Notes: a model not told the origin generated them from the sequence alone. Positions 30,031-47,225 are shown, counted from the first letter of the stretch. The stretch is DNA of 64,000 bases from Candidatus Yonathbacteria bacterium RIFCSPLOWO2_01_FULL_47_33b (GCA_001823575.1 MHUW01000007.1:24223-88222); one strand, 5' to 3'. A program made the numbers and translations.

Positions 30031-30039
30031 GATTGTAGA

Positions 30040-30865: not shown

Positions 30866-30882
30866 ACATTAAGTATACCAAT

Positions 30883-31143: not shown

Positions 31144-31280
31144 TAATAGGTATTCTACCATGAATATCTGTCGGCTTTACAAGAAATATTTGAAGGTGTA
31201 CAGTAAGCACTTGATGCAAAAAACTCCGCATGGGCGGATATTTTTTGTTAATAAATTTCATAATAAACTTACCCACCGCC

Positions 31281-33059: not shown

Positions 33060-33123
33060 AAGCGTTTGACGCCTCCGCCACCCTATGGTAGCCTGCAAAC
33101 AGATAGTTAACCAATAGGAGGCA

Positions 33124-33639: not shown

Positions 33640-33675
33640 AAAAGGCTTCCTCACGGAAGCCTTTTTTCTTTTTAC
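33640..33675 (+). terminator. rho-independent terminator
   Basis: aaaaggcttcc-tcac-ggaagcctttttt. Confidence 0.7.
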
Positions 33676-35144
33676 CCCCTCCTCAGCACCTCAAAGATCT
33701 CTACCATCGCCATCGTGTCGAGGGCGCAGTATTTGAGAAGGTTTGCTTTTGTTTTTTCAATATCTTCATCACTCATACCACCCCTGATCATCTTTTCCCA
33801 TTCGCTGAGCGCCATGGTGCCATTTTGAATATCGAGCGTCTTGTATGAGAGTTCGGGCAAAAGCACGGGCAATACTTTTTTAATAGATGCACTTCCCTGA
33901 AAATCTGGATGTTGATAGTCATCCTTAAAAATTTTCATCAAGTCAAAAACTCTACTGTTGATATCTTCGAGAAAACCGCGATGCTCGGGGTGCAGCTCAG
34001 CGAGCTCCATATTGCGCCCCTTCTCAAATGACTCATACCACACAATGACGCTGCCCACGGGCCCTACACAGCCTCGCAGGGCATCTAGGAGGCCATTTGT
34101 TGCGCCAGGCAGTCCACCCGCAAGGTATTCAAAGTGCTCAAGCGTGCCATCCGCATCAAGCTTGTGCACCGACACCTGAAAGACAATTTGCTGGTTTGTT
34201 TTGTACCCGTCGAGAAGTGGTATGGGCGTGCCGTAGGTTTCGTAGTCGAGAAAGTACAGTGGAAAGGTGAGCTGCGAAAGTGTTTCATCTATTCCTTCTG
34301 TATTGATAATCGGCCGACCCGTTTTTTGTAACGTAACCTTGTCACGCTGTATGTCGGTCAAGTCAAAGTCTTCGGGAATATCTGCAATCTCTAAAACACC
34401 CATATCTAAAAGTTGACGGAGTTTATTCCCCTGCACAATGTGATGCACCGAGTACTCCGGCACCTGCGGATTGAATTTATGGAAACAATCACACCGCTGA
34501 CCGTGGCTCTTATACAAACAGTCACACCCCACGAGCGAAATTTCATCCTTTGCAAGCATTACGAGTGCCCGTTCAATCTCTGCTCGCACCACCTCCTTTT
34601 CCTCATGTATCTGCTCGGTGACGTTCTCAATAATAAAAAGCTGGTTGATATCTACCTCGCCTGCACGGCGATATTCTTTGTTGATATAAATGATGTAACT
34701 ATCGCCCACGTTCACCCCTGCATCCTCGGCGACAATCGTCTGAAACCCGACATCCTTTATATGATTATGCTTGAGGTCGGTCTTGATCTCCGAGCTCGCC
34801 TTTACTTCATAAATATCCCACTTCCCTGTCTCGGCGTTAAAATTCAAAATATCTATTTTTGCAAAGAGCCCTTGCTTGGTCTCAAACGTCGCTTGAAAAA
34901 TCGAGTTGCTCCCCTGCAAAAGCTCCTGCGTACGCGCAAGCAGTGTCTCTTTGTTCCCCGTCACAAACACGCCGTCAGGAAAAAGCTTTTGCACATACTC
35001 CTCCACCTCGTACCCGTCCTTGATGAGCTTTTGCAGAAACAGCGAAAACTCGCCAGGGGTATATTCCTCCGGTCGCTTTTTCTTGAGCCACAAACACTTG
35101 TCGCACAAAAGAAATTCCTTAAAATCGGTTTTGGTGAGGGTCAT
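33672..35144 (-). CDS. DUF2779-like protein (Cas4-like PD-(D/E)XK nuclease N-terminus with Cys cluster + RNaseH-like/DEDD exonuclease-like C-terminus)
   Basis: CDKCLW...C, YEVK, GCDCLYKSHGQRCDC and FLDYETYGTPIPL motifs. The ATG abuts the upstream gene's stop. Confidence 0.65.
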   Translation of the reverse strand: MTLTKTDFKEFLLCDKCLWLKKKRPEEYTPGEFSLFLQKLIKDGYEVEEYVQKLFPDGVFVTGNKETLLARTQELLQGSNSIFQATFETKQGLFAKIDILNFNAETGKWDIYEVKASSEIKTDLKHNHIKDVGFQTIVAEDAGVNVGDSYIIYINKEYRRAGEVDINQLFIIENVTEQIHEEKEVVRAEIERALVMLAKDEISLVGCDCLYKSHGQRCDCFHKFNPQVPEYSVHHIVQGNKLRQLLDMGVLEIADIPEDFDLTDIQRDKVTLQKTGRPIINTEGIDETLSQLTFPLYFLDYETYGTPIPLLDGYKTNQQIVFQVSVHKLDADGTLEHFEYLAGGLPGATNGLLDALRGCVGPVGSVIVWYESFEKGRNMELAELHPEHRGFLEDINSRVFDLMKIFKDDYQHPDFQGSASIKKVLPVLLPELSYKTLDIQNGTMALSEWEKMIRGGMSDEDIEKTKANLLKYCALDTMAMVEIFEVLRRG

Positions 35145-36149
35145 TTAAGCTGTTTTCTTTTTCTTGCCACTCACAAGCATCGTAAGAATGAGCCCTACCA
35201 TTTTATCCTTGTGTGCAGGGTCGCTCTCGGCAACGAGGAGTGTGATTGCCGTAAGTGCTGGTGGTGTAATGCGCGACGTATCAAGTGCTTTCGCTTTCGC
35301 AAGGAACCATACAAACGCATATGCGCCACTTCTTTTGTTGCCGTCGATGAACGGATGATTTTTGATAACAAAATAGAGGAGGTGTGCTGCCTTTTCCTCA
35401 ACCGTTGGGTACATATCACTACCACCAAACGACTGCATCACATTCCCCACAATACCCGCCACGCTTCCTCGTTCGCGTTCGGTCGCAAAAAGATCTGTCG
35501 CCTCTCCTTTTACAACGAGGGACTCTTTGAGTGTCGCGAGGGCACTCCCAAAAGTCTCGGCTGTAATTTTAACCGATTTCTTGGTAGCACCATTGGTGAC
35601 CAGAGTGTCTTTATCGTAAGCATCAAGCGAAAGCCAAGTATCAGCAAAGAGCGAGATGAGTTCAAGGATTCCCTCAGTGTCCACGGTCGCACCCTTGGGG
35701 AGTAGTGCCTTCACGTCGGCCACCGTCTTCAAAAACGCATCATAATTTTGTGAAATACGAGACTTGTTTATCGTGTAGCCGTCAACGATATGAGCACGGA
35801 GGGTTTTGGTTGCCCATTGGCGGAATTTTGTACCAACTACCGAATTTATTCGATACCCCACGGCAATCAAAATATCGAGATTATAAATATCAACCTCACG
35901 GCGAACCTCTCTGCCTGACTCATTTTGAACTAGTTCCATTTTGGAACTAGTTGCTCCCCGAGCCAGCTCCTTTCCCTTATAGATATTTTGGATATGCTTT
36001 GAAATTGCTTGCGGATTTACCTCAAACATTTCGGCCATCTGCATACGTGTCGCCCACACCGTTTCCTTACCAAAATCACCCCGAAGCTCAATAGCTCCAG
36101 ATTTTGCTTGATAGATTACCACTTCTTTTTTAATTTCTTTCGCTTTCAT
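35145..36149 (-). CDS. RhuM-domain / Doc(Fic)-family fusion protein
   Basis: N-terminal RhuM-like region (YQAKSGAIELRGDF...ILIAVGYRINS) and C-terminal Doc motif HPFIDGNKR. Confidence 0.75.
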   Translation of the reverse strand: MKAKEIKKEVVIYQAKSGAIELRGDFGKETVWATRMQMAEMFEVNPQAISKHIQNIYKGKELARGATSSKMELVQNESGREVRREVDIYNLDILIAVGYRINSVVGTKFRQWATKTLRAHIVDGYTINKSRISQNYDAFLKTVADVKALLPKGATVDTEGILELISLFADTWLSLDAYDKDTLVTNGATKKSVKITAETFGSALATLKESLVVKGEATDLFATERERGSVAGIVGNVMQSFGGSDMYPTVEEKAAHLLYFVIKNHPFIDGNKRSGAYAFVWFLAKAKALDTSRITPPALTAITLLVAESDPAHKDKMVGLILTMLVSGKKKKTA

Positions 36150-36235
36150 TGTAGTGTATTATACCATACCATTTCAGCACACTGTATAAAAAAGCCCATG
36201 CGGAGGCATGGGCTGAATTTCTTTATGTTTTTAAA

Positions 36236-36598
36236 TTATATTTTTGCTGTTGGGCGCTTAGGGAGTCCTTCAATCTTTTTCGCAACCCGTTTTACTTCGG
36301 CCGTGCGACTGAGTTTTTTGTGATTACCAAAGGGCCACATGCGCATGGCACTTTCGCCTTCTACGTGGGTGAATATCCGAAATTTGTGCTCGAACTTTGC
36401 CGCGTTGCATTCCATACGCACAATGAATCGATAAGAGACTTCCACGACATCATGGGGAACATCCTCATTGTCCAACTTGCCACGATAAATCTTGTCATCA
36501 GTGGCGCCACATGATTGCACCAAATCCATCATCGCGGACTCATTGGTCTTTGCATCCTTTGGCTCTACGAACCATGTTGTTACGCGTTCCTTTTTCAT
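36236..36598 (-). CDS. hypothetical protein
   Basis: SD GGGGAG. No recognisable domain. Confidence 0.5.
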   Translation of the reverse strand: MKKERVTTWFVEPKDAKTNESAMMDLVQSCGATDDKIYRGKLDNEDVPHDVVEVSYRFIVRMECNAAKFEHKFRIFTHVEGESAMRMWPFGNHKKLSRTAEVKRVAKKIEGLPKRPTAKI

Positions 36599-36682
36599 CG
36601 CGCTTCTCCCCTGTTAAATATGTTATTGAAAACAACCAACCTGCCCACAACCCTACCACAAAAGCGCAGGAAATCAAGATGC

Positions 36683-36717
36683 CTATCATTTGGAAGCTTC
36701 GCTTCCAAATGATAGGA
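36683..36717. repeat. 15-bp-arm perfect inverted repeat (cctatcatttggaag / cttccaaatgatagg)
   Basis: Read directly. Lies in the 5' leader of the 36598 gene, next to a terminator. Confidence 0.6.
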
Positions 36718-36758
36718 AAAGCCCCCGCCATTAGAAAATGGCGGGGGCTTTTGTCTCG
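36716..36758. terminator. bidirectional terminator with a perfect 15-bp stem
   Basis: aaaagcccccgccat-tagaaa-atggcgggggctttt. Confidence 0.75.
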
Positions 36759-36763
36759 AGAAA

Positions 36764-37189
36764 TTAACTAAGTGATGCTACTTCACGCATGATTTGATCA
36801 AGCTTGGTGTTGATAGCTTCTAGTTGTTTCAGAACTGCATCATTGCTGGTGCCGCTTTCAGCGCGAGGAGCGTACGGAGCGCGGGGGCTGAAATCCTTTT
36901 TAGGAAATCTGTCTCCACCTCTATCCTTATTGAAACTTCCTCCTGCTACATTGAAACAATCCTTGCAGTACACAGGCTTTGCTCCCGTAGGGCGAAACGG
37001 TACTTCGCACGCCTTGTGGCACTCTGAACACGTTGCCTTATAGAGCGTAAACGGCGCATCGCTTGATTTACGATCTCCCCAATTCTTCTTGCCATAACTC
37101 GGCGCACCCGAGCGATTAGCACCAAATGAAGGTTTTCCTCCTCTTGCTCCATAACTCCCACTACCCCCTCGTTTGTTGTATTCTGTCAT
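36764..37189 (-). CDS. Gly/Arg-rich zinc-ribbon protein (CxxC...CxxC)
   Basis: CSECHKACEVPFRPTGAKPVYCKDCF with a low-complexity G/R/S-rich N-terminus. Confidence 0.6.
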   Translation of the reverse strand: MTEYNKRGGSGSYGARGGKPSFGANRSGAPSYGKKNWGDRKSSDAPFTLYKATCSECHKACEVPFRPTGAKPVYCKDCFNVAGGSFNKDRGGDRFPKKDFSPRAPYAPRAESGTSNDAVLKQLEAINTKLDQIMREVASLS

Positions 37190-37282
37190 AAGTACGTGGA
37201 CTATGCACTATATATGAAGAAATAGCAAGGGCGATACTGAAAAGGTCAATTATTCTTAATTAATCTCACCTGTGGATAACTT

Positions 37283-37310
37283 TTGACTTTTTTTACAAAA
37301 AAGTTATAAT
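37283..37310 (+). promoter_or_regulatory. sigma70-like promoter TTGACT-16-TATAAT
   Basis: Hexamers read directly on the plus strand. Confidence 0.5.
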
Positions 37311-37317
37311 ATATAGG

Positions 37318-37395
37318 TCTTTCGGTTTTACCATTAAACCGTAAGGGTATTACATCCTAGGGTAGCCCTCCGCAAGGAGGGCTACTTTGTTTTCT
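37318..37395 (+). ncRNA. candidate small RNA (approx. 78 nt) between a consensus promoter and an intrinsic terminator
   Basis: Promoter at 37283-37310, terminator gtagccctcc-gcaa-ggagggctac + tttgttttc. No ORF. Confidence 0.3.
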
Positions 37396-37972
37396 CTTCT
37401 CGGTGTTTCAAATCACGTCCCCAGATATCTTCTTCGATTTTGAGAACATCAACGTACCCGTCCCCTCCTGTGCGTAATTCTTCAGAGACGTTGTTCTTTG
37501 AGGAATAAGCATACACCTTTTTACCATCTCGCTTCAAATAGGTCACCAAGGCGAGAAAATCAGAATCCCCAGAGAAAAAGATAGCCGTATCATATTTATT
37601 CTTGTAATGAATAACATCAATAGTCATCTCTACGTCCATGTTTCCTTTTTCCTCCACAATATCCCCGTCATCTGAATGAACAGTGATACGTTTGAGTTCT
37701 TTTTTGCGAACAGTAAAACCTAAACCTTTCTTAAGGTAAGTAAAAAATTTATGCTTACCGTCCAATGAATAATCGCGAGTTCCTTCTGCTGGATATGCTG
37801 TGTAATAAAATACATCAATAGTATCCGCTCCATGCTTTTCCTTCAAAAATTTCTTCAATTTTTCAAAATCAAACACCCGTCCCTTCACCTTTTGCGCAGC
37901 CCAAAGGTTCGACGCGTCAATGAAGACGTACACGGCATGCGGTTTCTTTTCATCAGCTGTCATAACAATCAT
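37382..37972 (-). CDS. NYN-domain (LabA-like, PIN-fold) protein
   Basis: VFIDASNLW...IFFSGDSDF signature. Confidence 0.8.
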   Translation of the reverse strand: MIVMTADEKKPHAVYVFIDASNLWAAQKVKGRVFDFEKLKKFLKEKHGADTIDVFYYTAYPAEGTRDYSLDGKHKFFTYLKKGLGFTVRKKELKRITVHSDDGDIVEEKGNMDVEMTIDVIHYKNKYDTAIFFSGDSDFLALVTYLKRDGKKVYAYSSKNNVSEELRTGGDGYVDVLKIEEDIWGRDLKHREEKTK

Positions 37973-38075
37973 TCTACCACATTCTCTGCGAACGCCTCCC
38001 TTAAATATGCTTTTTCGAGAAATTTGAGGTCGGCGAGTTTGGTGGTTTGGAGGGTGCGGAAGATGATAAAAATCC

Positions 38076-38576
38076 TTACTTCAACACAACCCCGAGGTCG
38101 TAGATATCAAGTTTTCCATCGTTGTTTAGGTCACCGCTGTCGAGTGTCCCTTGTTTTTTGTGCAGGTCGTAGATGAGTTTTAGGTATTTCCCAAGCACGA
38201 TGCGCGGAATCTCATACTGTCGTTCCTTGCCATACCATTCAAATGGGTCTCGGCCGCTCTTTTTGGCGTTACAACCGCGACATGCAAGCACTTGGTTATC
38301 AAACGTATCTATCGCGATTTTTACCTTAGGAATAATATGCTCCCATTCAAGCCCCTCCTCAGCGCTAGCACAATATGCACAAGCTTTTTCTTCGTTAAAG
38401 AATTTCTTGTTCTCTCGCAAAATGTTCGATGGTTGCATCTGTCCATCTTTCAATTTTTTATACGAATGCATAACAAACCCGTAATTCTTTCGGTCACCAA
38501 CCGTGCTCCCCGCAATGAGCTTTGCGTATTCCCAATAAATAAGGTCCCGAATTGTTTTTACTGAAGCGTGAGGCAT
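38076..38576 (-). CDS. HNH endonuclease with a dockerin-like C-terminal motif
   Basis: CAYC...EWEHIIP...LACRGCNAKK HNH motif. C-terminal DLNNDGKLDIYDL. Confidence 0.8.
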   Translation of the reverse strand: MPHASVKTIRDLIYWEYAKLIAGSTVGDRKNYGFVMHSYKKLKDGQMQPSNILRENKKFFNEEKACAYCASAEEGLEWEHIIPKVKIAIDTFDNQVLACRGCNAKKSGRDPFEWYGKERQYEIPRIVLGKYLKLIYDLHKKQGTLDSGDLNNDGKLDIYDLGVVLK

Positions 38577-38590
38577 GATATTTTAAATTC

Positions 38591-38962
38591 TCAGTCTGCT
38601 TTTTTGTTTCTCGGGATCTCACTTCGGGGTTCTCTTCGAGATTTATCAAAAATATTTTCCAGCCATCTTACTAGGAAATTATGATGGTCACCACCAACCT
38701 CATCATAACGCCTGCCTGTAAGGTTTCTTGTAACTGCCTTTAAAAATTCGGCTAGATGCTCGATTTGTAACTTAATATTAACATCCTTTGTAGAAGTAGC
38801 CAGGGAGCGCGTCGCTCTATATTCTGAATTAAATATATTCGCAAGCTCCTGTTTATGTTTTCTCTCCTTAATAAAGACTGAGAATTCGTAGGTAATAAAA
38901 ATAACATTAACAACAAATGAGACTATCTGGAGCCACTCTGGGCTTGGAATTATATTTGGCAT
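38591..38962 (-). CDS. hypothetical membrane-anchored protein
   Basis: N-terminal TM. Same operon as the HNH gene. Confidence 0.5.
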   Translation of the reverse strand: MPNIIPSPEWLQIVSFVVNVIFITYEFSVFIKERKHKQELANIFNSEYRATRSLATSTKDVNIKLQIEHLAEFLKAVTRNLTGRRYDEVGGDHHNFLVRWLENIFDKSRREPRSEIPRNKKAD

Positions 38963-38966
38963 AATT

Positions 38967-39140
38967 TTAGTGTTTGGTTGGGTCTACTAATTTATAAGAA
39001 GATCCTAGTTTTAAGATTGGCGGTAATGTTTTCCCTTTTACACACGTGACTTCAATTCCTGTTTCGCCTCCTCTTGGTCCTATTACTTCATACTGCCCTG
39101 ATCTTGGCACCGCTTGCCCTGGTTTAAATGTATTCTTCAT
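38967..39140 (-). CDS. small YjzC-like protein (57 aa), absent from the ORF track
   Basis: Manual translation MKNTFKPGQAVPRSGQYEVIGPRGGETGIEVTCVKGKTLPPI... matches the YjzC-like pattern KPG.KAP.SG.Y...G..GG...LPP. 4-5 nt intergenic gaps on both sides. Confidence 0.45.
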   Translation of the reverse strand: MKNTFKPGQAVPRSGQYEVIGPRGGETGIEVTCVKGKTLPPILKLGSSYKLVDPTKH

Positions 39141-39145
39141 AATTA

Positions 39146-39709
39146 TTATTCAGCTTCATTAAGTTCTTCCTTTTCCTTGCAATATTTTTCAGAAAAGTCC
39201 TTTAGCGCCACCTTGATGTCTTTAAGTTCACCATCCATTACTGCATCGTTTGTTTCTGGTGTTTTGGGAATAAGTAATTTTACTCCACCACCAAATTTAA
39301 ATTCAAAATTATGAGCAGAGTTATCGATTTCAGCAGAAAAACCTGTTTTATCCTTAGAAACAGCTACATTGGTTGATATTTTTTTAGAGCGAGAAATCAC
39401 TTTGGGTGACCAGTTTGCCATTTTTGTTGGATCAACCCCATATTTTTCATAATCAGAAAGAACTTTAGTTACACGTGACTTATAAGTTGCCAGTGAGCTT
39501 GCGCTGAAGTTTTTGTTTTTTGAAAATACGTTCTGGTAAATTTGCTCGATGTTTTTGCTAAATACGTCTATCGAATTGCGCTCCTCTTCATTTAATACTG
39601 CCTCAAACAGCTTCAGTGCTGTTTTAAGTGCCATACCTGTATTGTCAGGGTATTTTCTGCTCTTGACCGCTCTGTCTATAAACTCATATAGATCTTGAAT
39701 TTTTTTCAT
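39146..39709 (-). CDS. hypothetical protein
   Basis: First gene of a 4-gene minus-strand operon downstream of the RM gene. Confidence 0.5.
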   Translation of the reverse strand: MKKIQDLYEFIDRAVKSRKYPDNTGMALKTALKLFEAVLNEEERNSIDVFSKNIEQIYQNVFSKNKNFSASSLATYKSRVTKVLSDYEKYGVDPTKMANWSPKVISRSKKISTNVAVSKDKTGFSAEIDNSAHNFEFKFGGGVKLLIPKTPETNDAVMDGELKDIKVALKDFSEKYCKEKEELNEAE

Positions 39710-39851
39710 GATATTTTTGGGGTTAATTAGTAACTCCTAAATGCTATCACAACTCAACAATATAAGTCAAGTGATAATATAAACAGATTTGTGTATAATC
39801 TGTTTATATGTGGTTTTTAAAGGGTTTTATGTTATTAAAGTTTTATTTGGA

Positions 39852-42800
39852 CTACTTATCAACATTTTTAATTGCAATCATAATCCTATCCGTTTCAACC
39901 AGTGCTACAATCATTTTTTGATAGTGTTCGATGTCTGTGTTGGAGAGTTTGCGGGATTGGCGGTCCTTGAGCCATTTTTGAGCAGGCTGATAGCCACCGA
40001 TGTAGAAATTCCAGGCGACTTCAGGAACATTGCCAAAATACTGCGTGTCATTGATGTACACATTGCCATCTTTGTATTTTGGATATTTCGCCTCGACGGT
40101 GTCGCTTCCCGCCTGAGGAAATGTCGTGATGAAGTTTTTGAGCTTTGGTGATTCCAAAAGATGTAGTGCGCGGAGTTCACCACCGAGCGCAACAAGCTTT
40201 TTGAACGACTCAGTATCTTGAGGATAAGGAACACGCGGAAAATTAATCTTCAAAAACTCTTTATATTTTTCGCGGTAACTTGGTGAGTGCAAAGCGGCAT
40301 AGATGTAATCAAAAATATCTTCGGGGGTTGTCTTGCCGACAATCTTTTCTATTTCATCAACAATTTCTTTTTTGAGGTTCGGTGTTTTTAAGCCGTCTTC
40401 GGTGTAGAGATAGAGGGGGAAAGTATAAGCACCTTCCTTCGTCTGCAAAGAAACGGTACATCTATCAACGAGTGTTTTTGTTAAAAAAATGTGTTTAAAA
40501 TCAGAGCTGCTTTGCTGCTTGGAAACCAGCAGGGCTAAATTATCTTTACCAACCAAATGTTTGTAAACTTTATATCCAGAACGACTAATCAGCTCTGGGT
40601 CATAATAGATCCACACAAAACCAAACGGTCTATACTGCTCTAACTGTATGTAATTTTCATCAAACAACTTCCCTTTAATTCGTTCCGTTAATTTATATCC
40701 ACTTGAGTCGACCACTCGATAAGTAGATTTAAAACTACCACTGTAATTATTTGATAGAAGTTCTTGAATTTTCTTTGTGAGTTTACTTTTATCAAAATCT
40801 GTGAAGAGCGGGTCTCGATCAGTCTGAACACCAGAATTCGAAATCTGAAATAACTCATCAACCTTAAAACCTTTCTCATATTCTTCATTCGCACCAAAAT
40901 CTTTCGGCACAAAAAAATAGTACGGCTCAGAATATTCAAGTTTCTGCCATTTAATATTTTCTACCGACCCAGCATCAAGTGCCTCGAACTTTACTTTTTG
41001 TTTTCCGTAGAGTTCGGTGTGGTACATATCTGCCAACCGCTTTTTCTTTCCGCTTTTCTTTACGAACAGAGAGATAGATACACCCTGTTGAATAGCGAAA
41101 ACGTTTTCGTCCTTCCCTCCGTCAGGTGCTACTTCTTTCTTTTTTGCATTGCCGTGCAGGTCGATAATATAAATCGAGTCAAATGTTTCGAGCAAGTGTT
41201 TGCGCATTTGACGGTGCGTGATTCCGTCGATGAATGAGTTGTTCGTAATCATACCAACAATCCCCTCACCATTTTTCTCAATTAAGTCCTCAGTAAAACG
41301 AATGAATTTTATATAATCATCGTCAAGGTTGATTTTACGCTCGTTCAAATCTTTTTTGTATTCCTTGATCAATTCTGAAATATGTTCACCCTTGTTTTGC
41401 GAGCTGACATTATAGGGCGGGTTGCCCATCACGACCATGATCGGCAATTCGTTTTTTACGCGGTTTGCTTGGTTGGACTCTTCAGTGATTGCTTTACCGA
41501 GACCGATGCTTGAAAATAAGGTGTTTTCTTCTGACTCGCCTTTTTCGAGCGAGTTGGTTAGGTACACACCGAGGCGCGTACTCTCGTTAATATTTGCGCC
41601 AGACTCTTTGATCGTCGAAGAAAGTTTGAGGTGTGCGATAGTGTACGACGCCATCATAAGTTCAAAGCCATGAAGGCGCGGGAGTAGGTCTTCGTTCACA
41701 TAATTGTTCCACCTCCCCTCTTGCCCTGCAAATGATTTTTGGATGTGCTGTATCGCTTCATTCAAAAATGTCCCCGTGCCTGTTGCGGGGTCGAGTACTT
41801 GGACTTTGTGCACCGACACTTTGTGTTTCTTGCCTTGCACCTCTTTCATTATTTCGATTTTTGAATTTTCGGCGAGGCCTTGCGCAAGACCAAACTCTTT
41901 TTTCAAAATGTCATCTACGGCGCGAACAATGAACCGCACCACAGGGAGTGGGGTGTAGAACACGCCCATCTTTTTGCGCTCGGCAGGGTCATACTCCTGC
42001 AAGAAGTCTTCGTAAAAATGAATGATGGGGTCGCGACTGTCGTCCTTGCCCACTTTGTAGTAGTTATGCACGATTGCCTCTACGTCGGCATTAGTAAACT
42101 CTTCACAAAGTTCGTTTACAATAAACTCAATACGTGGGTCAAACGACGAGCCGGCGATGTGGTCAAAAAAATGGCGAAGAAACGGATTGGACGCTGGGAC
42201 TAAATCACGCGCTTCCCTGCGCGAAAAATCCTCTGGTGTATCGTCATAGTACCTTGCAACAAAAAGCCCGTACACGAGCGTCTGTGCATACATATCGGCA
42301 AACTTTTCCTTGTCGAGGTCGGCAAGTAAGAGCTTTTTGATAACCTCGTAGACAGAGAGTAGGTTTTCATTTTTTGCGTTGTCTTCTTGCGCAAGAAAAA
42401 CCTTTACATTGTCGCGGATACGGCGCGCCTTGCCAGCCATCACCTTTGCCAAGACTGAGCCAGACTTTATCGGCTCTTTTGATTCGGTGATGAAGCCGCT
42501 AATTGTGTCCTCGAGAAGCTTGAACGTTTCCTCGTTTGAAACTATTTCTTTTTTGTCGAGCTTTGCGATAACAACCGCCTCGCCGTATCGTGTAGCATTT
42601 TGATAAAAACGAAACTCAAGACAGTTGGTAAGAATAATATTTGAGTATCCGTAATACCTACCCATTTGTTCGCTTTTTTCTATCTCGTCAAGTGAAATAT
42701 TAAGGTCCTTTGCTTCTGCATATGCAACAACGGTCTTCCCTTTAGTAAAGACGAAATCCGGTGCGCCATACTCGCTTCGTTTTGGTTCGTTGTGAACTTT

Positions 42801-42920
42801 TAATTCGGTGATTTTTTCAAACAACTCTTGAAGCGCGGGGCGGTACGAGTGCTCGGTAGCATGTCCGCTTGCGTGCGTTTCAGCGACTTTTTGTATGAAA
42901 TTTTTTACAGTTTGACTCAT
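39852..42920 (-). CDS. Type IIG restriction-modification enzyme, MmeI-like (nuclease + gamma-class N6-adenine MTase + TRD)
   Basis: N-terminal PDFVF...AYAEAKD nuclease motif. MTase motif I VLDPATGTGTFL and motif IV NPPY. Length about 1000 aa. The track start 42959 is not ATG, so the ATG at 42920 is preferred. Confidence 0.85.
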   Translation of the reverse strand: MSQTVKNFIQKVAETHASGHATEHSYRPALQELFEKITELKVHNEPKRSEYGAPDFVFTKGKTVVAYAEAKDLNISLDEIEKSEQMGRYYGYSNIILTNCLEFRFYQNATRYGEAVVIAKLDKKEIVSNEETFKLLEDTISGFITESKEPIKSGSVLAKVMAGKARRIRDNVKVFLAQEDNAKNENLLSVYEVIKKLLLADLDKEKFADMYAQTLVYGLFVARYYDDTPEDFSRREARDLVPASNPFLRHFFDHIAGSSFDPRIEFIVNELCEEFTNADVEAIVHNYYKVGKDDSRDPIIHFYEDFLQEYDPAERKKMGVFYTPLPVVRFIVRAVDDILKKEFGLAQGLAENSKIEIMKEVQGKKHKVSVHKVQVLDPATGTGTFLNEAIQHIQKSFAGQEGRWNNYVNEDLLPRLHGFELMMASYTIAHLKLSSTIKESGANINESTRLGVYLTNSLEKGESEENTLFSSIGLGKAITEESNQANRVKNELPIMVVMGNPPYNVSSQNKGEHISELIKEYKKDLNERKINLDDDYIKFIRFTEDLIEKNGEGIVGMITNNSFIDGITHRQMRKHLLETFDSIYIIDLHGNAKKKEVAPDGGKDENVFAIQQGVSISLFVKKSGKKKRLADMYHTELYGKQKVKFEALDAGSVENIKWQKLEYSEPYYFFVPKDFGANEEYEKGFKVDELFQISNSGVQTDRDPLFTDFDKSKLTKKIQELLSNNYSGSFKSTYRVVDSSGYKLTERIKGKLFDENYIQLEQYRPFGFVWIYYDPELISRSGYKVYKHLVGKDNLALLVSKQQSSSDFKHIFLTKTLVDRCTVSLQTKEGAYTFPLYLYTEDGLKTPNLKKEIVDEIEKIVGKTTPEDIFDYIYAALHSPSYREKYKEFLKINFPRVPYPQDTESFKKLVALGGELRALHLLESPKLKNFITTFPQAGSDTVEAKYPKYKDGNVYINDTQYFGNVPEVAWNFYIGGYQPAQKWLKDRQSRKLSNTDIEHYQKMIVALVETDRIMIAIKNVDK

Positions 42921-42957
42921 AAAAAGTAGGAGTGTTAACAGTTCCCAGTATACCTCC

Positions 42958-42990
42958 AATCAATCTTTAATACAAAAGCCCCAATCGGGG
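42958..42990 (-). terminator. terminator after the MazG-like gene
   Basis: gccccgattggggc followed by ttttgtatt on the minus strand. Confidence 0.55.
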
Positions 42991-42997
42991 CGCTTGT

Positions 42998-43348
42998 TTA
43001 CAGCTTCGTATACTTCGTATGCTTCCCTTTGGCTTTTTCGACGGGGTATTTGGCTTTGTTTTTCTCTATCTTTTTCTCGTGGGCGTCGGCGATGTCGATG
43101 CCGAGGTCGTGACTCATCAAAAGGACCCACGAGAGCACATCCGCGAGCTCCTCGCCTATCTCCTCTTTACCCTCTTTTACATACACCTCTATTTCCTCTT
43201 TGTTTTTCCACTGGAAATGCTCCAGCACCTCGGCTGCCTCGAGCGAGAGCGATATTGCGCAGTCCTTGGGGTTGTGGAACTGCTGCCAGTCGCGTTCATC
43301 CCGAAACTTGGTAATCTCCTCCGTTAATTTTTGAATTGAATTAGGCAT
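42998..43348 (-). CDS. MazG-like nucleotide pyrophosphohydrolase (small all-alpha NTP-PPase)
   Basis: EEI..F...R.W..FH.PK...SL..E..E.LE and EE..D MazG-type motifs. 2-nt gap from the upstream gene. Confidence 0.8.
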   Translation of the reverse strand: MPNSIQKLTEEITKFRDERDWQQFHNPKDCAISLSLEAAEVLEHFQWKNKEEIEVYVKEGKEEIGEELADVLSWVLLMSHDLGIDIADAHEKKIEKNKAKYPVEKAKGKHTKYTKL

Positions 43349-43350
43349 TT

Positions 43351-44409
43351 TTATTGTAGGGATTTTTTTGCTTCATTTTTTGCACGCTCAACCATAAATT
43401 TAACGGCTTCGTTCATATTGGTGTCCTGGATTACAATATCCGGCCGTTTTTCCTGAAATACGCGGTAGACCTCATCAGCAAATGCTTGCCCAATCATCGG
43501 AACACGATCATAATCCATCACGATTATTCTGAATTTCTCAAGCCCCGACAATACACGCCGAGCCTGAGAACGAGAAATATGCACACCACCCATAGTGTAC
43601 AAGCGGACTCGAATCTCTGTTTTATCAAACCCATAATCGCTATCTTCAGCAAGGTTAGTATACTTCTTAAAAATATCGTTCAAATGGTGTTTGTCTTTTA
43701 TATTGATCTTGAAACTCACCTTCGTCCCTTTTTTGATTCCCTTTATTTTTTTAACGAAGATGTCTTTAATTTTGTTATCCGCAATATATTGATACCCGTA
43801 GCTATCAAGTACAAAAAGGTCCCCGACTTTTGATGTGAAGAAAATACCCTCACCTGAATGAAGTTTGGGCGCTGTGGTCATTTTTCCTTTTAAAAGGTCC
43901 TGAATTGCTTCAATCTCAGAGTTAAGGTTGCGTTTACGCATAATGTTACGGTATACACCAACGCCGTAGTCATCAATAACAAAAGAAAGCTCGTTGTCTT
44001 TCAGTAGTACCGTAACCTGAATTATTTCTGACTTGGAATGTTCGATAGCATTATTCAACATTTCTGAAAATGCGAACGTAAAAATACTTTTTATATTTTC
44101 TGGAAGTTTTTTAAACGGTAAAAATGAGCGCTCAACATCATCAAGGACTTTGTGCTCCTCGAGAGATTTGTTTTCTAATTTTTTGGTGTACCTATTTTCA
44201 ATAGTGTCTGGATGGGAATCAGCGTATTCTGGCAAAACATACGCGGCATTGCGAGTCGATCCTATTTTTATAAGTTTTCCTTCGGCGACAAGTTCAGACA
44301 GCATTTTTGAAACATACTGCCTCGTAACACTAAAAGCCGCCACAAAATAGGCACTTTTAAGAAGCCCTTTCTGTTTTGCTATCTTGAGTATCTTTTCCTT
44401 GTTCAGCAT
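43351..44409 (-). CDS. wHTH - GHKL ATPase-like - DUF4325 (STAS-like) protein
   Basis: N-terminal HTH, central FSEMLNNAIEHS (HATPase_c-like) and C-terminal RIIVMDYDRV...GQAFADEV (DUF4325-like). The track starts at TTG 44421. Confidence 0.6.
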   Translation of the reverse strand: MLNKEKILKIAKQKGLLKSAYFVAAFSVTRQYVSKMLSELVAEGKLIKIGSTRNAAYVLPEYADSHPDTIENRYTKKLENKSLEEHKVLDDVERSFLPFKKLPENIKSIFTFAFSEMLNNAIEHSKSEIIQVTVLLKDNELSFVIDDYGVGVYRNIMRKRNLNSEIEAIQDLLKGKMTTAPKLHSGEGIFFTSKVGDLFVLDSYGYQYIADNKIKDIFVKKIKGIKKGTKVSFKINIKDKHHLNDIFKKYTNLAEDSDYGFDKTEIRVRLYTMGGVHISRSQARRVLSGLEKFRIIVMDYDRVPMIGQAFADEVYRVFQEKRPDIVIQDTNMNEAVKFMVERAKNEAKKSLQ

Positions 44410-44462
44410 ATTGTAAACCAATTGTAAACCAATGCTTTTTAATTGTCAACTAATTGTCAACC
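44410..44462 (-). promoter_or_regulatory. promoter built from tandem 11-bp repeats (2x TTGACAATTAG, 2x TTTACAATTGG) giving TTGACA-17-TACAAT, leaderless
   Basis: Repeats read directly. The -10 lies immediately upstream of the ATG. Confidence 0.55.
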
Positions 44463-44513
44463 AGCAAAATAAGGCTTATTTTCAGTGTTATTTTGCTAAT
44501 TTGTGGATGTTAT

Positions 44514-45769
44514 TTAAAGAAACAACAAATCCCTATCCAAATCATCGGACTCGGTGCCTTTTGTTTTGTGTTTGAGGGCGGTGTGAGTTGAAGCGAGGTA
44601 CACCACGCGCTTGCCGAGTTTGTCTTCTAGTGTATCAATGCGTTTGTGGATGGCATCAAACTTGTCGGCCTTGATCGTCCCACCGAACAAATCCGCCTGT
44701 GAAGCATGTCCGGGAACAAGGTCGTGGAGGGTTACTCCTGTGGTGCGGTACAGAACGCCTCCTGTATGTATTTTTTCAAGCTCCGCATGCGCGAGCGCCA
44801 TGAGAATCTCGGGGGAATTTGAAGGTACGGAAAGTGGTATCGAACACGTTACGATTTTGAAATTTTGTGTCTTCAGAAAAATAGAGATTTTCTTGGGCAC
44901 CAATTCATAGTGTCGCGCTTTTTTGCAGGCGTCCTCTATGTTTTTTGAAAGCTGCGACCAGAGAAATGTTTTGTCATTGGTCGCGGGGTGAAATGTTAGC
45001 GTCTTTTGTATGGACGAGTAAACTGTTTTAACCTCTGGGTCTACCTCCATAACCGACTCGCCGCCCAACTCGCGCCAGATAGCTTCGTAGGGTTTTGAGA
45101 GATTTTGTCTGACCCAAGAAATATCTTTCATACTAAAATCTTTGGCAGTATACACGGCCCTCTTGGTGAGAAACTCTGCTGTTTTGGGTCCAATGCCCCA
45201 AACTTTCTTGATTGGTGTCTTTGTGAGGAAATCCGGCGCCGTACTTGTCTCGATGACGGTCAGACCATTTGGCTTGACCCAGTTGGATGCAACCTTGGCA
45301 AGCACTTTTGTTGGCGCGAGACCAATCGACACCGAGAGCCCGAGCTCTTCGTTTACTTCTTTTTTAATACGCTCCGCCATTTGCAGATAGGTCATCTTGA
45401 GTGGTGGCTCGAGTCCCGTGAGATCGGCAAAGCATTCATCAATACTATATTCCTCGACATCATCGGCATACCTGCGCACAATATCAAACATCTTGCTCGA
45501 ATAAAGTGCATATGACTTGTAGTCTCCTGGCAGAATGATGACGCTCGGGAAGTCTCTTTTGACTTTGAATATCGGCATACCGCGAATGATGCCGAGCGCT
45601 TTTGCTTCGTACGACAGCGCCGATACAATCCCCGCTCCTCGCCCGTCACCACCGGCAGACCCTTTAGCGTCGGGTCCTTTGCGACCTCCACCCCCACAAA
45701 AAACGCATCTCCATCAATATGGAAAATCACCTTTTGTTTTATGAGATTATTTTGAGCGAGTGTCTTCAC
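44514..45769 (-). pseudogene. dinB: DNA polymerase IV (Y-family) interrupted by a -1 frameshift in a C4/G4 homopolymer
   Basis: The N-terminal frame (IFHIDGDAFFVGVEV...GEERG) and the downstream frame (IVSALSYEAKALGIIRGMPIFKVK...) are both DinB-like. The junction is at cccc 45630-45633. One extra C/G would fuse the frames. Confidence 0.75.
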
Positions 45770-45793
45770 TCACTGTATTATACCAAATTCTCT

Positions 45794-45814
45794 GACTGGG
45801 GAACTTGGTCCAAG
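45794..45814. repeat. degenerate direct repeat of the tRNA-Gln 3' end (14/14 bp ACTGGGGAACTTGG, then a T-loop-deleted remainder)
   Basis: Identical 14-mer at 45794-45807 and 45998-46011. Confidence 0.6.
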
Positions 45815-45957
45815 AGTCTGCGGCCAAGCCGTGAATTTTGTAATTCAGAATCTGCTGATTCAGGATCGCCTCTCGCTCTGCTGAGCTCGAAACCTACGTC
45901 CTCTCTTCGAGGACTGCGGCCCGCGGTTCAATCCCAAGTTCTTCAACCGTTGTAAAT

Positions 45958-45992
45958 AAAAAGCACCCTCATGACAAGGGTGCTTTTTATTT
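45958..45992 (-). terminator. terminator downstream of tRNA-Gln
   Basis: aaaaagcaccc-ttgtcatga-gggtgcttttt. Confidence 0.7.
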
Positions 45993-45998
45993 ACAAAA

Positions 45999-46069
45999 CT
46001 GGGGAACTTGGGATCGAACCAAGATTGACGGCTTCAAAGGCCGCTGTCCTACCATTAGACGATTCCCCA
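45999..46069 (-). tRNA. tRNA-Gln (anticodon TTG)
   Basis: Manual cloverleaf: acceptor UGGGGAA/UUCCCCA with U1-A72, D-arm GUCU-AAUGGUA-GGAC, anticodon arm GCGGC-CUUUGAA-GCCGU, T-arm CUUGG-UUCGAUC-CCAAG, discriminator G. CCA is not encoded. Confidence 0.85.
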
Positions 46070-46122
46070 ATATTTAAAACAGCACTTGTGCAGAATACAC
46101 CAAAAGAGATACTTCGGCAACG

Positions 46123-47154: not shown

Positions 47155-47189
47155 TTCCCTAGTATAGCAAAAAAGTATGCGGTTCAAAA

Positions 47190-47225
47190 ATAAAACCCCC
47201 TGCAATGTTTTGCGGGGGTTTTAAG
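47190..47225. terminator. terminator hairpin
   Basis: aaaaccccctgc...gcgggggtttt. Confidence 0.55.

What the first reader, a model, noticed from the sequence alone, without database searches (positions are those of the whole stretch)
33672..46069. A roughly 12.5 kb tRNA-Gln-adjacent accessory island packed with nucleases, an RM enzyme and toxin-like genes
Twelve consecutive minus-strand genes between a housekeeping transporter region and tRNA-Gln/dnaX are dominated by defence-type functions. These are a DUF2779 nuclease, a RhuM-Doc/Fic fusion, a NYN domain protein, an HNH endonuclease, a MmeI-like Type IIG RM enzyme, a MazG-like NTP pyrophosphatase, a wHTH-GHKL-DUF4325 protein and a disrupted dinB, with several hypotheticals interspersed. 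A 14-bp perfect copy of the tRNA 3' end (45794-45807) sits about 200 bp from the tRNA gene, as expected of an att-site remnant. No integrase was found, so the island may be old or domesticated. This is the best place in the window to look for an undescribed anti-phage module.
Basis: partly seen in the sequence, partly recalled or inferred. Interest (0 to 1): 0.7.

Follow-up and report, generated by a model that had tools for sequence, protein, structure and literature searches.

The report
Mosaic defence-gene hotspot beside tRNA-Gln
Next to a tRNA gene in an ultra-small (CPR, Yonathbacteria) bacterium lies a real variable region where several separately acquired anti-invader gene cassettes have piled up; most are known kinds, two gene families in it are uncharacterised and worth testing, and it is not one integrated island.

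Summary
The genes and the 14-bp repeat are real (the repeat is at 45795-45808, one base off). The five closest relatives (DnaX 81-86% identical) all keep dnaX then tRNA-Gln. None carries any island gene there, and each has different genes after the tRNA. Shared gene order resumes only at window ~24.5 kb, so the non-syntenic block is 21.5 kb, not 12.5 kb. Only ~36.7-44.4 kb has foreign composition.

The block is a mosaic, not a single element. No catalytic integrase was found. The tRNA 3'-end repeat encloses only ~190 bp, and no other copy exists in the window.

Recognised defence content:
- an intact DrdV-like Type IIL restriction-modification enzyme (not MmeI family);
- a RhuM-Doc fusion, the PADLOC candidate PDC-S23.

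New points:
- MazG-like, Type IIL, a 187-aa protein with an integrase core-binding fold, and a YjzC-like 57-aa protein form a cassette (38952-43348). The same cassette is conserved in another CPR genome.
- The wHTH-GHKL-DUF4325 gene is a solo gene with a SpoIIAB-like kinase fold fused to a STAS-like domain. It has no fixed partner, is sometimes embedded in restriction-modification operons, and sits at accessory positions in prophages.

Overall this is an ordinary kind of locus containing two testable candidate families.

The parts
24515..33624 (.). Left part of the non-syntenic block. It holds two P-type ATPases, DUF6629, cupin, TspO, a 92-aa GIY-YIG gene, SulP (+ strand) and a 166-aa hypothetical. 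Composition is native-like.
   Evidence: Pfam. Gene order shared with L085 and L086 resumes only at DAGK, 24168-24512. Composition.
33672..35144 (-). DUF2779 protein (490 aa) with an N-terminal Cas4/RecB-like nuclease part. It abuts the RhuM-Fic gene with no gap.
   Evidence: Pfam 111 bits. PADLOC Cas4 E 4e-7. A 39%-identical homologue lies directly after tRNA-Gln in L037. GC3 is 0.56.
35145..36149 (-). RhuM + Fic/Doc fusion, the PADLOC candidate single-gene system PDC-S23.
   Evidence: PDLC04965 scores 364 bits over the full length. Pfam finds RhuM and Fic. About 40%-identical proteins occur on 68 plasmid records. RhuM-DOC fusions in restriction-modification loci are described in PMC3710099.
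36236..36598 (-). Hypothetical 120-aa protein, followed by a terminator-like hairpin at 36193-36214.
   Evidence: No hit in Pfam, PADLOC, NCBIfam or PHROGs. Hairpin.
36764..37189 (-). CxxC-x17-CxxC treble-clef zinc-finger protein (141 aa). It is probably not defence-related. Two perfect 16-bp terminator hairpins follow at 36682-36752.
   Evidence: zf_Tbcl_2 scores 54.5 bits and TIGR04272 matches. Homologues lie 5-6.6 kb downstream of dnaX in L010 and L057. Hairpins.
37382..37972 (-). NYN (LabA-like) domain protein, 196 aa.
   Evidence: Pfam NYN 84.9 bits. PADLOC NYN E 1e-10. GC3 is 0.40.
38076..38576 (-). Small HNH endonuclease (166 aa) with CxxC...CxxC and His-Asn motifs present. It is the last gene of a tight four-gene run.
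   Evidence: Pfam HNH. Sequence. Gaps of 5, 4 and 14 bp separate it from the upstream genes (gene table).
38591..38962 (-). Hypothetical 123-aa protein with a hydrophobic N-terminal segment.
   Evidence: No family hit. GC3 is 0.33.
38967..39140 (-). YjzC-like 57-aa protein, the fourth gene of the conserved cassette.
   Evidence: Pfam YjzC E 6e-4, below the family cut-off. It is 70% identical to the gene in the same position in L173.
39146..39709 (-). 187-aa protein. Its N-terminal 100 aa have the tyrosine-recombinase core-binding (SAM-like) fold, with no catalytic domain. It is a conserved follower of Type IIG genes in CPR genomes.
39852..42959 (-). Single-chain Type IIG/IIL restriction-modification enzyme. 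The probable start is Met14 at 42920, giving 1022 aa. All catalytic motifs are intact.
   Evidence: PADLOC REase_MTase_IIG 937 bits. Pfam N6_Mtase, Eco57I and Type_ISP_C. PDB relatives DrdV 7lo5, LlaBIII and LlaGI. Motifs PD...EAK, DPATGTGTF and NPPY are present.
42998..43348 (-). MazG-like NTP pyrophosphohydrolase (116 aa), the first gene of the conserved cassette.
   Evidence: Pfam MazG-like 68 bits. It is 68% identical to the gene in the same position before the IIG gene in L173. GC3 is 0.67.
43351..44421 (-). wHTH + SpoIIAB-like GHKL ATPase/kinase + STAS-like DUF4325. The probable start is 44409, giving 352 aa. It has its own promoter-like site at 44421-44449.
   Evidence: Pfam. Foldseek SpoIIAB, target TM-score 0.75, E 5e-6. 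N-box, G1 and G2 motifs are invariant. No fixed neighbour. Promoter-like site.
44514..45769 (-). dinB (DNA polymerase IV) interrupted by one frameshift near 45630. Its composition is native-like.
   Evidence: Pfam IMS, IMS_HHH and IMS_C on two ORFs. Three-frame translation. dinB lies downstream of dnaX in L054 and L064. GC3 is 0.53.
45795..45814 (-). Direct copy of the tRNA-Gln 3' end. It comprises the exact 14-mer (45795-45808) plus the other T-stem arm, with the T-loop collapsed to one base.
45797..45946 (+). 150-nt structured segment closed by a 12-bp stem, UGGGGAACUUGG / CCAAGUUCUUCA. Its 3' arm (45925-45947) is an inverted, degenerate copy of the tRNA T-arm and acceptor 3' strand.
   Evidence: the repeat finder pair I7. 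Minimum free energy -59.5 kcal/mol, z -4.7 on the + strand, against z -2.6 on the - strand. No Rfam family. Not matched by model R1.
45950..45996 (.). Perfect 20-bp bidirectional terminator hairpin directly after tRNA-Gln.
   Evidence: the repeat finder pair I2; fold.
45998..46070 (-). tRNA-Gln (anticodon UUG).
   Evidence: ARAGORN. Rfam tRNA 62.7 bits.
46123..47205 (-). dnaX, the conserved anchor. The run dnaX-dus-ftsQ-like-serS-dprA is syntenic in relatives.
   Evidence: Pfam. Synteny.

Best explanation
The stretch downstream of dnaX and tRNA-Gln is a long-lived flexible region, that is, an insertion and replacement hotspot, of this Yonathbacteria/Paceibacteria lineage.

In this genome it holds a mosaic of units acquired independently:
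1. A four-gene Type IIL restriction-modification cassette: MazG-like, the restriction-modification enzyme, a core-binding-domain protein and a YjzC-like protein (38952-43348). It restricts unmethylated incoming DNA. The core-binding-domain protein is most likely a DNA-binding controller or adaptor.
2. hyp123 and HNH, plus NYN, appended to that cassette.
3. A solo wHTH-GHKL-STAS gene with its own promoter.
4. A RhuM-Doc toxin-type gene (PDC-S23) abutting a DUF2779 nuclease.

These sit among older residents of the region: dinB (now frameshifted), the zinc-finger gene, and the cupin/TspO/GIY-YIG/transporter genes further left.

The 14-bp repeat belongs to a separate ~190-bp unit that trails the tRNA (terminator plus structured segment). 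It does not mark the border of the island.

Shown here: non-synteny, the compositional mosaic, conservation of the cassette elsewhere, intact enzyme motifs, and absence of an integrase or a distal att copy. Inferred: anti-phage activity of any gene, and the regulatory role of the core-binding protein.
For: **Synteny.**
- All five closest relatives (L083, L085-L088) keep dnaX then tRNA-Gln, followed by different genes. None of the 13 island genes is there.
- L085 and L086 rejoin the window's gene order at 24512 running down to 21777.
- About 40 of 80 more distant relatives keep the dnaX-tRNA-Gln pair, again with varied downstream content.

**Composition.**
- Only 36.7-44.4 kb deviates.
- GC3 ranges from 0.28 to 0.67 between adjacent genes.

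**Cassette.**
- MazG, IIG, hyp187 and hyp57 occur in the same order in L173/L174 at 62-70% amino-acid identity. Nucleotide similarity spans window 43294 to 38952, except in the specificity (target-recognition) region.
- A hyp187 homologue also follows a true MmeI-family enzyme in L171.
- The restriction-modification motifs are intact.

**Solo gene.**
- Across 80 metagenome loci no neighbour family occurs in more than 3 loci. MazG and IIG are neighbours in 0 of 80.
- An 88%-identical homologue sits between hsdR and hsdM of a Type I system.
- 43 relatives lie in viral contigs at accessory-gene positions.

**Repeat.**
- There is no other tRNA-3' copy in the window.
Against: - The closest relatives are still only 81-86% identical in DnaX. 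The one 93% relative has a contig that ends in dnaX. The order and timing of insertions therefore cannot be resolved.
- MazG (GC3 0.67) and hyp187 (GC3 0.30) differ sharply in composition although they belong to the same conserved cassette. GC3 alone is thus a weak guide to separate origin.
- One of four distinct hyp187 contexts has no restriction-modification gene; in L175 it is followed by DUF3800.
- Only 2 of 13 genes hit defence models.
- No function was tested.
- I did not scan every small ORF for recombinase fragments.
Confidence: 0.7

Rival explanations
1. This is one old integrative island. It entered at the tRNA-Gln 3' end, later lost its integrase and its distal att site, and was then reshuffled.
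For: - The block is adjacent to a tRNA.
- An exact 14-nt copy of the tRNA 3' end begins just after the T-loop, where T-loop-class integrases cross over. That link rests on my knowledge of tRNA sublocation classes.
- In L007, tRNA-Gln 3' repeats bound 5.1-kb and 1.1-kb segments. This shows that the site does accrete DNA.
Against: - The repeat pair is 203 bp apart and excludes all 13 genes.
- No further copy exists within 6 mismatches of 19 bases, and that search gave no more hits than shuffled sequence.
- No catalytic integrase was found.
- The L007 segments also lack an integrase.
- The compositional mosaic argues against a single origin.
- The restriction-modification cassette is found on its own in a different context.
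Confidence: 0.12
2. The genes are mobile and selfish or regulatory rather than protective. The restriction-modification cassette and RhuM-Doc would act as addiction modules. The wHTH-GHKL-STAS protein would be a transcription regulator run by an internal partner switch. The nucleases would be homing or repair enzymes.
For: - The GHKL domain is closest to the anti-sigma kinase SpoIIAB and is fused to a wHTH and a STAS-like domain.
- Many of its neighbours are housekeeping genes.
- PADLOC has no model for it.
- The zinc-finger gene and dinB are not defence genes.
Against: - It is embedded in a Type I restriction-modification operon in L169.
- It sits at accessory-gene positions in prophages.
- Among its neighbours, restriction-modification, SoFic, PbeA, MADS and PDC-S23 hits recur.
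- Its identity is 64-72% to homologues labelled with several different CPR candidate phyla (Yonath-, Ryan-, Colwell-, Uhr-, Beckwithbacteria), while DnaX is only 47-63% identical to most of the best GTDB species representatives, all Patescibacteria. That pattern fits horizontal spread.
Confidence: 0.2
3. The block is an assembly or binning artefact, a chimeric contig joining unrelated DNA.
For: The genome is a metagenome-assembled genome. The GC content drops sharply at 37-42 kb.
Against: - Two ENA assemblies carry the same sequence across the junctions at 99.995-100% identity over 15-21 kb.
- The proteins are on record on up to 12 contigs, the longest 139 kb.
- Both flanks are syntenic with relatives.
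Confidence: 0.03

Closest known systems
Defence islands and tRNA-adjacent genomic-island hotspots
   Same: Restriction-modification, toxin-type and nuclease genes cluster in a strain-variable region next to a tRNA gene. The region is absent from close relatives and partly atypical in composition.
   Different: There is no integrase and no att pair bounding the island. Defence cassettes are interleaved with long-resident non-defence genes. The host is a CPR bacterium with a very small genome.
DrdV, a Type IIL single-chain restriction-modification enzyme (PDB 7lo5; bioRxiv 10.1101/2021.01.06.425610), and the methyltransferase-specificity module of the Type ISP enzymes LlaBIII and LlaGI
   Same: Similar length (1022-1035 aa against 1029 aa). 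An N-terminal PD...EAK nuclease motif, a gamma-class N6-adenine methyltransferase (DPATGTGTF, NPPY) and a Type_ISP_C specificity domain. The alignment covers residues 314-1001.
   Different: The N-terminal 300 aa hit no Pfam model. Here the enzyme travels with three conserved small genes (MazG-like, core-binding-domain protein, YjzC-like). I know of no such accessory genes described for DrdV.
MmeI family (Type IIL; PMC4833311)
   Same: Same overall logic: one polypeptide carrying nuclease, methyltransferase and specificity domain.
   Different: The MmeI_N, MmeI_hel, MmeI_TRD and MmeI_C models do not match, and MmeI_Mtase scores only 30 bits. A true MmeI-family enzyme followed by a hyp187 homologue is seen in L171.
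PDC-S23, the RhuM-DOC fusions of restriction-modification neighbourhoods (PADLOC-DB; PMC3710099)
   Same: Full-length match at 364 bits with the same RhuM N-terminal plus Fic/Doc C-terminal architecture.
   Different: Here it is not inside a Type I operon. It abuts a DUF2779/Cas4-like nuclease gene. PDC-S23 is a candidate, not a validated system.
SpoIIAB-SpoIIAA / RsbW-RsbV partner-switching modules
   Same: The GHKL domain superposes on SpoIIAB (target TM-score 0.75). The C-terminal domain is STAS-like (DUF4325).
   Different: Kinase-like and STAS-like parts are fused in one chain with an N-terminal wHTH. There is no sigma-factor partner. By eye on alignment A1, the position of the phospho-serine appears to be Gly-Gln, which I did not test rigorously. 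The gene is mobile and occurs in restriction-modification operons and prophages.
Tyrosine-recombinase core-binding domains, and recombinase-like regulators such as SPbeta MrpR
   Different: It has no catalytic domain at all. The family is a stable 170-200 aa, so it cannot recombine DNA by itself.

Membership tests
Integrase-mediated tRNA-integrated genomic island | Lies directly 3' of a tRNA gene | tested here: met
   tRNA-Gln is at 45998-46070 on the minus strand, and the island genes start 229 bp downstream.
Integrase-mediated tRNA-integrated genomic island | Encodes a tyrosine or serine recombinase | tested here: not met
   No recombinase catalytic domain appears in the Pfam scans of the 13 genes and their flanks. 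hyp187 has only the core-binding fold.
Integrase-mediated tRNA-integrated genomic island | Direct repeats of the tRNA 3' end bound the island | tested here: not met
   The copies at 45795 and 45998 enclose ~190 bp and no gene. No other copy exists within 6 mismatches of 19 bases, beyond chance level.
Integrase-mediated tRNA-integrated genomic island | Absent from close relatives, with atypical composition | tested here: met
   It is absent at this locus in L083 and L085-L088. Composition deviates only over 36.7-44.4 kb.
Defence island | Several recognised defence systems clustered together | tested here: inconclusive
   PADLOC finds one complete Type IIG restriction-modification enzyme and one candidate (PDC-S23). 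The NYN, HNH and Cas4-like hits are domain-level only, and six genes have no hit. Current DefenseFinder models were not available.
Type IIG/IIL restriction-modification enzyme (DrdV-like) | One polypeptide with a PD-(D/E)xK nuclease, a gamma N6-adenine methyltransferase (motifs I and IV) and a specificity domain | tested here: met
   PD(67)...EAK(81-83), DPATGTGTF (390) and NPPY (513) are present. Type_ISP_C scores 280 bits. PDLC03610 scores 937 bits.
Type IIG/IIL restriction-modification enzyme (DrdV-like) | Cleaves and methylates DNA at a specific site | not testable with these tools
   This needs methylome data or an enzyme assay.
MmeI family | MmeI_N, MmeI_hel, MmeI_TRD and MmeI_C domains | tested here: not met
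   None of the four models matches. MmeI_Mtase scores 30 bits only.
PDC-S23 (PADLOC candidate) | Full-length match to the family model | tested here: met
   PDLC04965 gives E 2e-109, covering residues 7-326 of 334.
PDC-S23 (PADLOC candidate) | Demonstrated anti-phage activity | not testable with these tools
   No paper in the searched library mentions PDC-S23.
SpoIIAB/SpoIIAA-type partner switch | GHKL serine-kinase fold with N, G1 and G2 boxes | tested here: met
   Foldseek hits 1til and 1th8. E120, N124, D151xGxG155 and S189GEG are invariant in 40 sequences.
SpoIIAB/SpoIIAA-type partner switch | STAS partner with a phosphorylatable Ser, and a sigma-factor target | tested here: inconclusive
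   DUF4325 (STAS-like) scores 30 bits. By eye there is no conserved Ser at the expected position in A1. No sigma factor is a conserved neighbour.
Two-gene GHKL-DUF4325 + MazG system | Conserved adjacency of the two genes | tested here: not met
   MazG is next to the GHKL gene in 0 of 80 loci. MazG instead travels with the IIG gene.

The most novel reading that the evidence does not exclude
At least one of the following is an undescribed conflict module of CPR bacteria.

(a) The 170-200-aa protein with only an integrase core-binding domain sits directly after Type IIG genes of two different families. It is followed by a variable small gene (HNH, DUF3800 or a hypothetical). It may be a new controller or adaptor of restriction, or a DNA-sensing partner of those effectors.

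(b) The solo wHTH-SpoIIAB-like-STAS protein forms about 800-1800 clusters at 50% identity. It occurs in restriction-modification operons and at prophage accessory positions. It may be a single-gene abortive-infection or exclusion system run by an internal partner switch.

Separately, the tRNA-trailing structured elements may be a new RNA class that mimics the acceptor/T-arm helix of the tRNA it follows.
Probability: 0.25. Interest if true: 0.65.

Novelty: new member of a known kind. Interest (0 to 1): 0.4.

Why it matters
CPR bacteria have tiny genomes and few recognised immune systems. What they keep in a variable hotspot therefore shows which defences are affordable for an obligate episymbiont.

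The practical yield is threefold:
- A corrected map of the locus: a 21.5-kb flexible region, a 4.4-kb conserved Type IIL cassette, and no integrative island.
- Two uncharacterised but widespread families with clear testable predictions: the core-binding-domain follower of Type IIG enzymes, and the solo wHTH-GHKL-STAS protein.
- A warning that a tRNA-end repeat next to an island need not be the island's att site.

Tried and rejected
- **Distal att site.** I scanned the window for the 19-nt tRNA 3' end allowing up to 6 mismatches. Only the known direct and inverted copies stand out, and the other hits are at shuffle level.
- **Integrase.** Some databases name hyp187 homologues 'site-specific integrase'. 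The family is only 170-200 aa and only the core-binding fold is present. Foldseek against PDB had found nothing.
- **GHKL + MazG as a two-gene system.** Rejected: they are neighbours in 0 of 80 loci.
- **A conserved partner for the GHKL gene.** Clustering 388 neighbours gave no family present in more than 3 loci.
- **The 92-aa ORF at 30883-31161.** I guessed YbaB, the classical dnaX neighbour. It is a GIY-YIG protein.
- **Rfam.** No family matches the 45797-45946 segment or the relatives' elements.
- **Covariance model R1.** The model of the relatives' tRNA-trailing element does not detect the window's segment. Pairwise alignment to the L087 element is at chance level.
- **GHKL protein against public phage and plasmid records.** No match in the INPHARED phage collection or PLSDB plasmids. 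Relatives do occur in IMG/VR viral contigs.
- **hyp187 in IMG/VR.** None found.
- **Literature.** DUF4325 appears in only three papers, none functional. PDC-S23 appears in none.
- **Synteny at the GTDB-representative level.** Relatives there are too distant (59% identity or less in most cases) to define borders. Closer genomes had to be found through the protein collection.

Full report
**Source and observation.** The window comes from a Candidatus Yonathbacteria (Patescibacteria/CPR) metagenome-assembled genome from the Rifle site. The proteins at 43351-44421 and 39146-39709 are 100% identical to entries from 'Candidatus Yonathbacteria bacterium RIFCSPLOWO2_01_FULL'. The same DNA is present in two ENA assemblies at 99.995-100% identity.

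- There are 13 minus-strand genes, not 12. A 57-aa gene at 38967-39140 was missed.
- The gene at 36764-37189 is a CxxC zinc-finger protein.
- The restriction-modification enzyme is not MmeI family. It has N6_Mtase, Eco57I and Type_ISP_C domains, and its closest solved relative is the Type IIL enzyme DrdV. It matches a PADLOC Type IIG model at 937 bits.
- Its nuclease (PD...EAK) and methyltransferase motifs (DPATGTGTF, NPPY) are intact.
- dinB carries one frameshift near 45630.

tRNA-Gln is at 45998-46070. The exact 14-mer lies at 45795-45808 and 45998-46011.

**Is the region accessory?** GTDB species representatives are distant (DnaX 59-63% identical at best). About 40 of 80 already show the dnaX-tRNA-Gln pair followed by varied content. 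Closer genomes were found through DnaX homologues. L083, L085, L086, L087 and L088 are 81-86% identical in DnaX.
- All five keep dnaX then tRNA-Gln. Three have a RelB-YafQ pair inserted between the two genes.
- Each has different genes after the tRNA, and none has any of the 13 island genes there.
- In L085 and L086 the gene order rejoins the window at DAGK-RluB-hyp63-glycosyltransferase, which is window 24512 down to 21777.
- The window therefore has 21.5 kb where L085 has 2.3 kb and L086 has 4.7 kb. The TruB and cold-shock genes present in those relatives are missing here.
- The 93% relative's contig ends inside dnaX.

The transporter region is also part of the flexible stretch.

**Composition.** Against the rest of the window, only about 36.7-44.4 kb deviates. 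The GC z-score falls to -5.9 and the tetranucleotide z-score rises to +8.6 at 39-41 kb.

| Gene | GC3 |
|---|---|
| hyp57 | 0.28 |
| hyp187 | 0.30 |
| hyp123 | 0.33 |
| Specificity domain of the restriction-modification enzyme | 0.34 |
| GHKL gene | 0.39 |
| NYN | 0.40 |
| RhuM-Fic | 0.45 |
| dinB | 0.53 |
| DUF2779 | 0.56 |
| MazG | 0.67 |

Several genes recur downstream of dnaX in more distant relatives:
- dinB in L054 and L064;
- the zinc-finger gene in L010 and L057;
- DUF2779 directly after tRNA-Gln in L037;
- cupin in L086;
- TspO in L041 and L060;
- the GIY-YIG gene in seven loci.

These look like long-term residents of a shared flexible region, with newer cassettes inserted among them.

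**The restriction-modification cassette.** The 187-aa protein just downstream of the restriction-modification gene has 171 homologues of about 170-200 aa; those that carry a source name are from Patescibacteria or unclassified bacterial MAGs. Its distinct genomic contexts are:

| Locus | Identity to hyp187 | Gene order |
|---|---|---|
| Window | - | MazG-like, IIG with Type_ISP_C, hyp187, hyp57, hyp123, HNH |
| L173/L174 | 68% | MazG-like, IIG with Type_ISP_C, hyp190, hyp57, DUF3800 |
| L171/L172 | 66% | true MmeI-family enzyme, hyp188, hyp158 |
| L175/L176 | 51% | hyp177, DUF3800, between mreC and tgt, with no restriction-modification gene |

- Between the window and L173, amino-acid identity is 68% for MazG, 62% for the restriction-modification enzyme, 68% for hyp187 and 70% for hyp57.
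- Nucleotide similarity runs from 43294 to 38952, apart from the specificity region.
- The conserved unit is therefore 38952-43348.
- A model of hyp187 (N-terminal domain pLDDT about 90) gave no Foldseek hit.
- I infer a DNA-binding controller or adaptor. This is not shown.
- hyp57 is weakly YjzC-like.
- hyp187, hyp57, hyp123 and HNH are separated by 5, 4 and 14 bp. A promoter-like site precedes hyp187, and a hairpin follows NYN.

**The wHTH-GHKL-DUF4325 gene.**
- *Family size.* More than 5800 homologues scored E <= 1e-5. Identity is 64-72% to homologues labelled with several different CPR candidate phyla. A profile search of 1.84 billion cluster representatives finds 2928, 1810 and 793 clusters at E <= 1e-3, 1e-10 and 1e-30. 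Nearly all are full-length at about 335-355 aa.
- *Fold.* The GHKL N, G1 and G2 boxes are invariant. The model (pLDDT 77.8) is closest to the anti-sigma kinase SpoIIAB (target TM-score 0.75). The C-terminus is the STAS-like DUF4325.
- *Neighbours.* In 80 metagenome loci no neighbour family occurs in more than 3 loci, and MazG or IIG is never adjacent. The immediate neighbours include a minority of defence and mobile-element genes among housekeeping ones. These include Type I S subunits, methyltransferases, SoFic, PbeA, MADS, PDC-S23, an IS200 transposase and a serine recombinase.
- *Closest homologues.* The 88%-identical homologue lies between hsdR and hsdM of a Type I system, followed by PemK. 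The 85% homologue lies among metabolic genes.
- *Viral contigs.* Relatives at 29-47% identity occur in 43 IMG/VR contigs with GC of 0.30-0.67. They sit between a late regulator and the small terminase, after tail genes, or near an integrase. All of these are accessory-gene positions.
- *Literature.* Published work on DUF4325 is essentially nil.
- *Reading.* I read it as a self-contained mobile gene. The likeliest mechanism is an ATP-driven internal partner switch coupled to DNA binding. Whether the output is regulation or exclusion is open.

**RhuM-Fic and DUF2779.**
- The fusion matches PDC-S23 over its full length.
- RhuM-DOC fusions in restriction-modification neighbourhoods were proposed as toxins in PMC3710099.
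- Proteins about 40% identical occur on 68 plasmid records.
- The gene abuts the DUF2779/Cas4-like gene with no gap. I could not test whether that pairing is conserved.

**The 14-bp repeat.**
- The direct copy extends to 20 nt (45795-45814). It carries both T-stem arms with the loop collapsed.
- An inverted, degenerate copy of the T-arm and acceptor 3' strand lies at 45925-45947.
- Together they close a 150-nt segment by a 12-bp stem with two G.U pairs on the + strand. Minimum free energy is -59.5 kcal/mol at z -4.7, against z -2.6 on the - strand.
- A perfect 20-bp bidirectional terminator separates the segment from the tRNA.
- The repeat pair therefore bounds a ~190-bp unit with no genes, and no further copy exists in the window.
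- Rfam has no match.

**A related pattern in relatives (side finding).** Several Paceibacteria loci have the same layout after tRNA-Gln. A terminator comes first, then a segment whose 5' arm is complementary to an exact 14-19-nt copy of that genome's own tRNA 3' end. The copy lies 160-190 nt downstream.
- Five such segments align to a three-way junction, with compensatory changes in 23 of 43 pairs.
- A covariance model finds about ten more. Some lie after tRNA-Leu, tRNA-Ala and tRNA-Lys, always on the tRNA's strand.
- On 17 sequences, 88% of cells pair, against 67% in shuffles and about 40% in slid controls. 36 of 43 pairs covary, and one G.U pair is conserved. That alignment was fitted to the model, so the counts lean towards the structure.
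- In L087 the element matches a partial second tRNA-Gln copy rather than the resident tRNA. This suggests that tRNA half, terminator and element move as one unit.
- In L007, tRNA-end repeats bound 5.1-kb and 1.1-kb segments that lack an integrase.
- The window's own segment is not detected by this model.

**Verdict.** The accessory nature of the region is supported. The single-island and att-remnant reading is not supported.

The locus is an ordinary kind of thing: a flexible, defence-enriched hotspot. It contains one complete known system and one catalogued candidate. It also contains two uncharacterised families with reproducible genomic associations that deserve experiments.

Noticed in passing
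L005:14511-14685, L074:1164-1300, L046:12516-12666, L026:11848-12003, L023:8133-8285, L015:384-533(-), L032:6590-6719(-), L087:12242-12392, L007:16236-16364, L005:1597-1735(-): A family of ~130-175-nt structured elements lies 45-215 nt downstream of tRNA genes (Gln mostly; also Leu, Ala, Lys) on the tRNA's strand. The fold is a three-way junction. The closing helix uses an exact copy of that tRNA's T-loop, T-stem and acceptor 3' strand. Covariation is strong (36 of 43 pairs) and there is no Rfam match.
   Followed up: partly
window 45797-45946 (+): A 150-nt segment between dinB and tRNA-Gln folds into a closed multibranch structure (z -4.7). It has tRNA-Gln-derived arms but an interior unrelated to the family seen in relatives. 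The G.U pairs favour the strand antisense to the tRNA.
   Followed up: partly
L087:12125-12400: A close relative carries, after its intact tRNA-Gln, a 44-nt partial second tRNA-Gln of a different allele. A terminator follows, then a structured element whose end matches that partial copy. It looks like a transferable unit.
   Followed up: partly
L007:11174, 16345, 17443: Three copies of a 14-nt tRNA-Gln 3' end bound a 5.1-kb segment (periplasmic binding protein and others) and a 1.1-kb single-gene segment (APH-type kinase). Neither segment has an integrase.
   Followed up: partly
L083:1418-2031, L085:11146-11689, L087:11214-11776: A RelB-YafQ/ParE toxin-antitoxin pair is inserted between dnaX and tRNA-Gln in three of the five closest relatives. 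It is absent from the window.
   Followed up: no
L169:6096-11545: An 88%-identical homologue of the wHTH-GHKL-DUF4325 protein sits between hsdR and hsdM of a Type I restriction-modification operon, followed by a PemK toxin gene.
   Followed up: partly
L173:6110-6784, L175:6538-7200: DUF3800 genes follow hyp187-family genes in two unrelated contexts. One has an adjacent restriction-modification enzyme and one does not. This hints at a pairing of the core-binding-domain protein with DUF3800.
   Followed up: no
window 44514-45769: dinB is interrupted by a single frameshift near 45630, identical in two assemblies. Whether it is real or a shared read error is unknown.
   Followed up: partly
window 24515-24168 region versus L085/L086: TruB and a cold-shock-domain gene lie between tRNA-Gln and DAGK in L085 and L086 (TruB also downstream of tRNA-Gln in L087, whose contig ends before DAGK). 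Both genes are absent from the whole 64-kb window.
   Followed up: no
window 19001-21000: A second low-GC patch (GC 0.416, tetranucleotide z +3.4) covers the ORFs at 19840-20388 and 20470-21753. I did not examine it.
   Followed up: no
window 48560-48607: A 48-nt perfect palindrome lies between the dus gene and the ftsQ-like gene. It is probably a bidirectional terminator.
   Followed up: no
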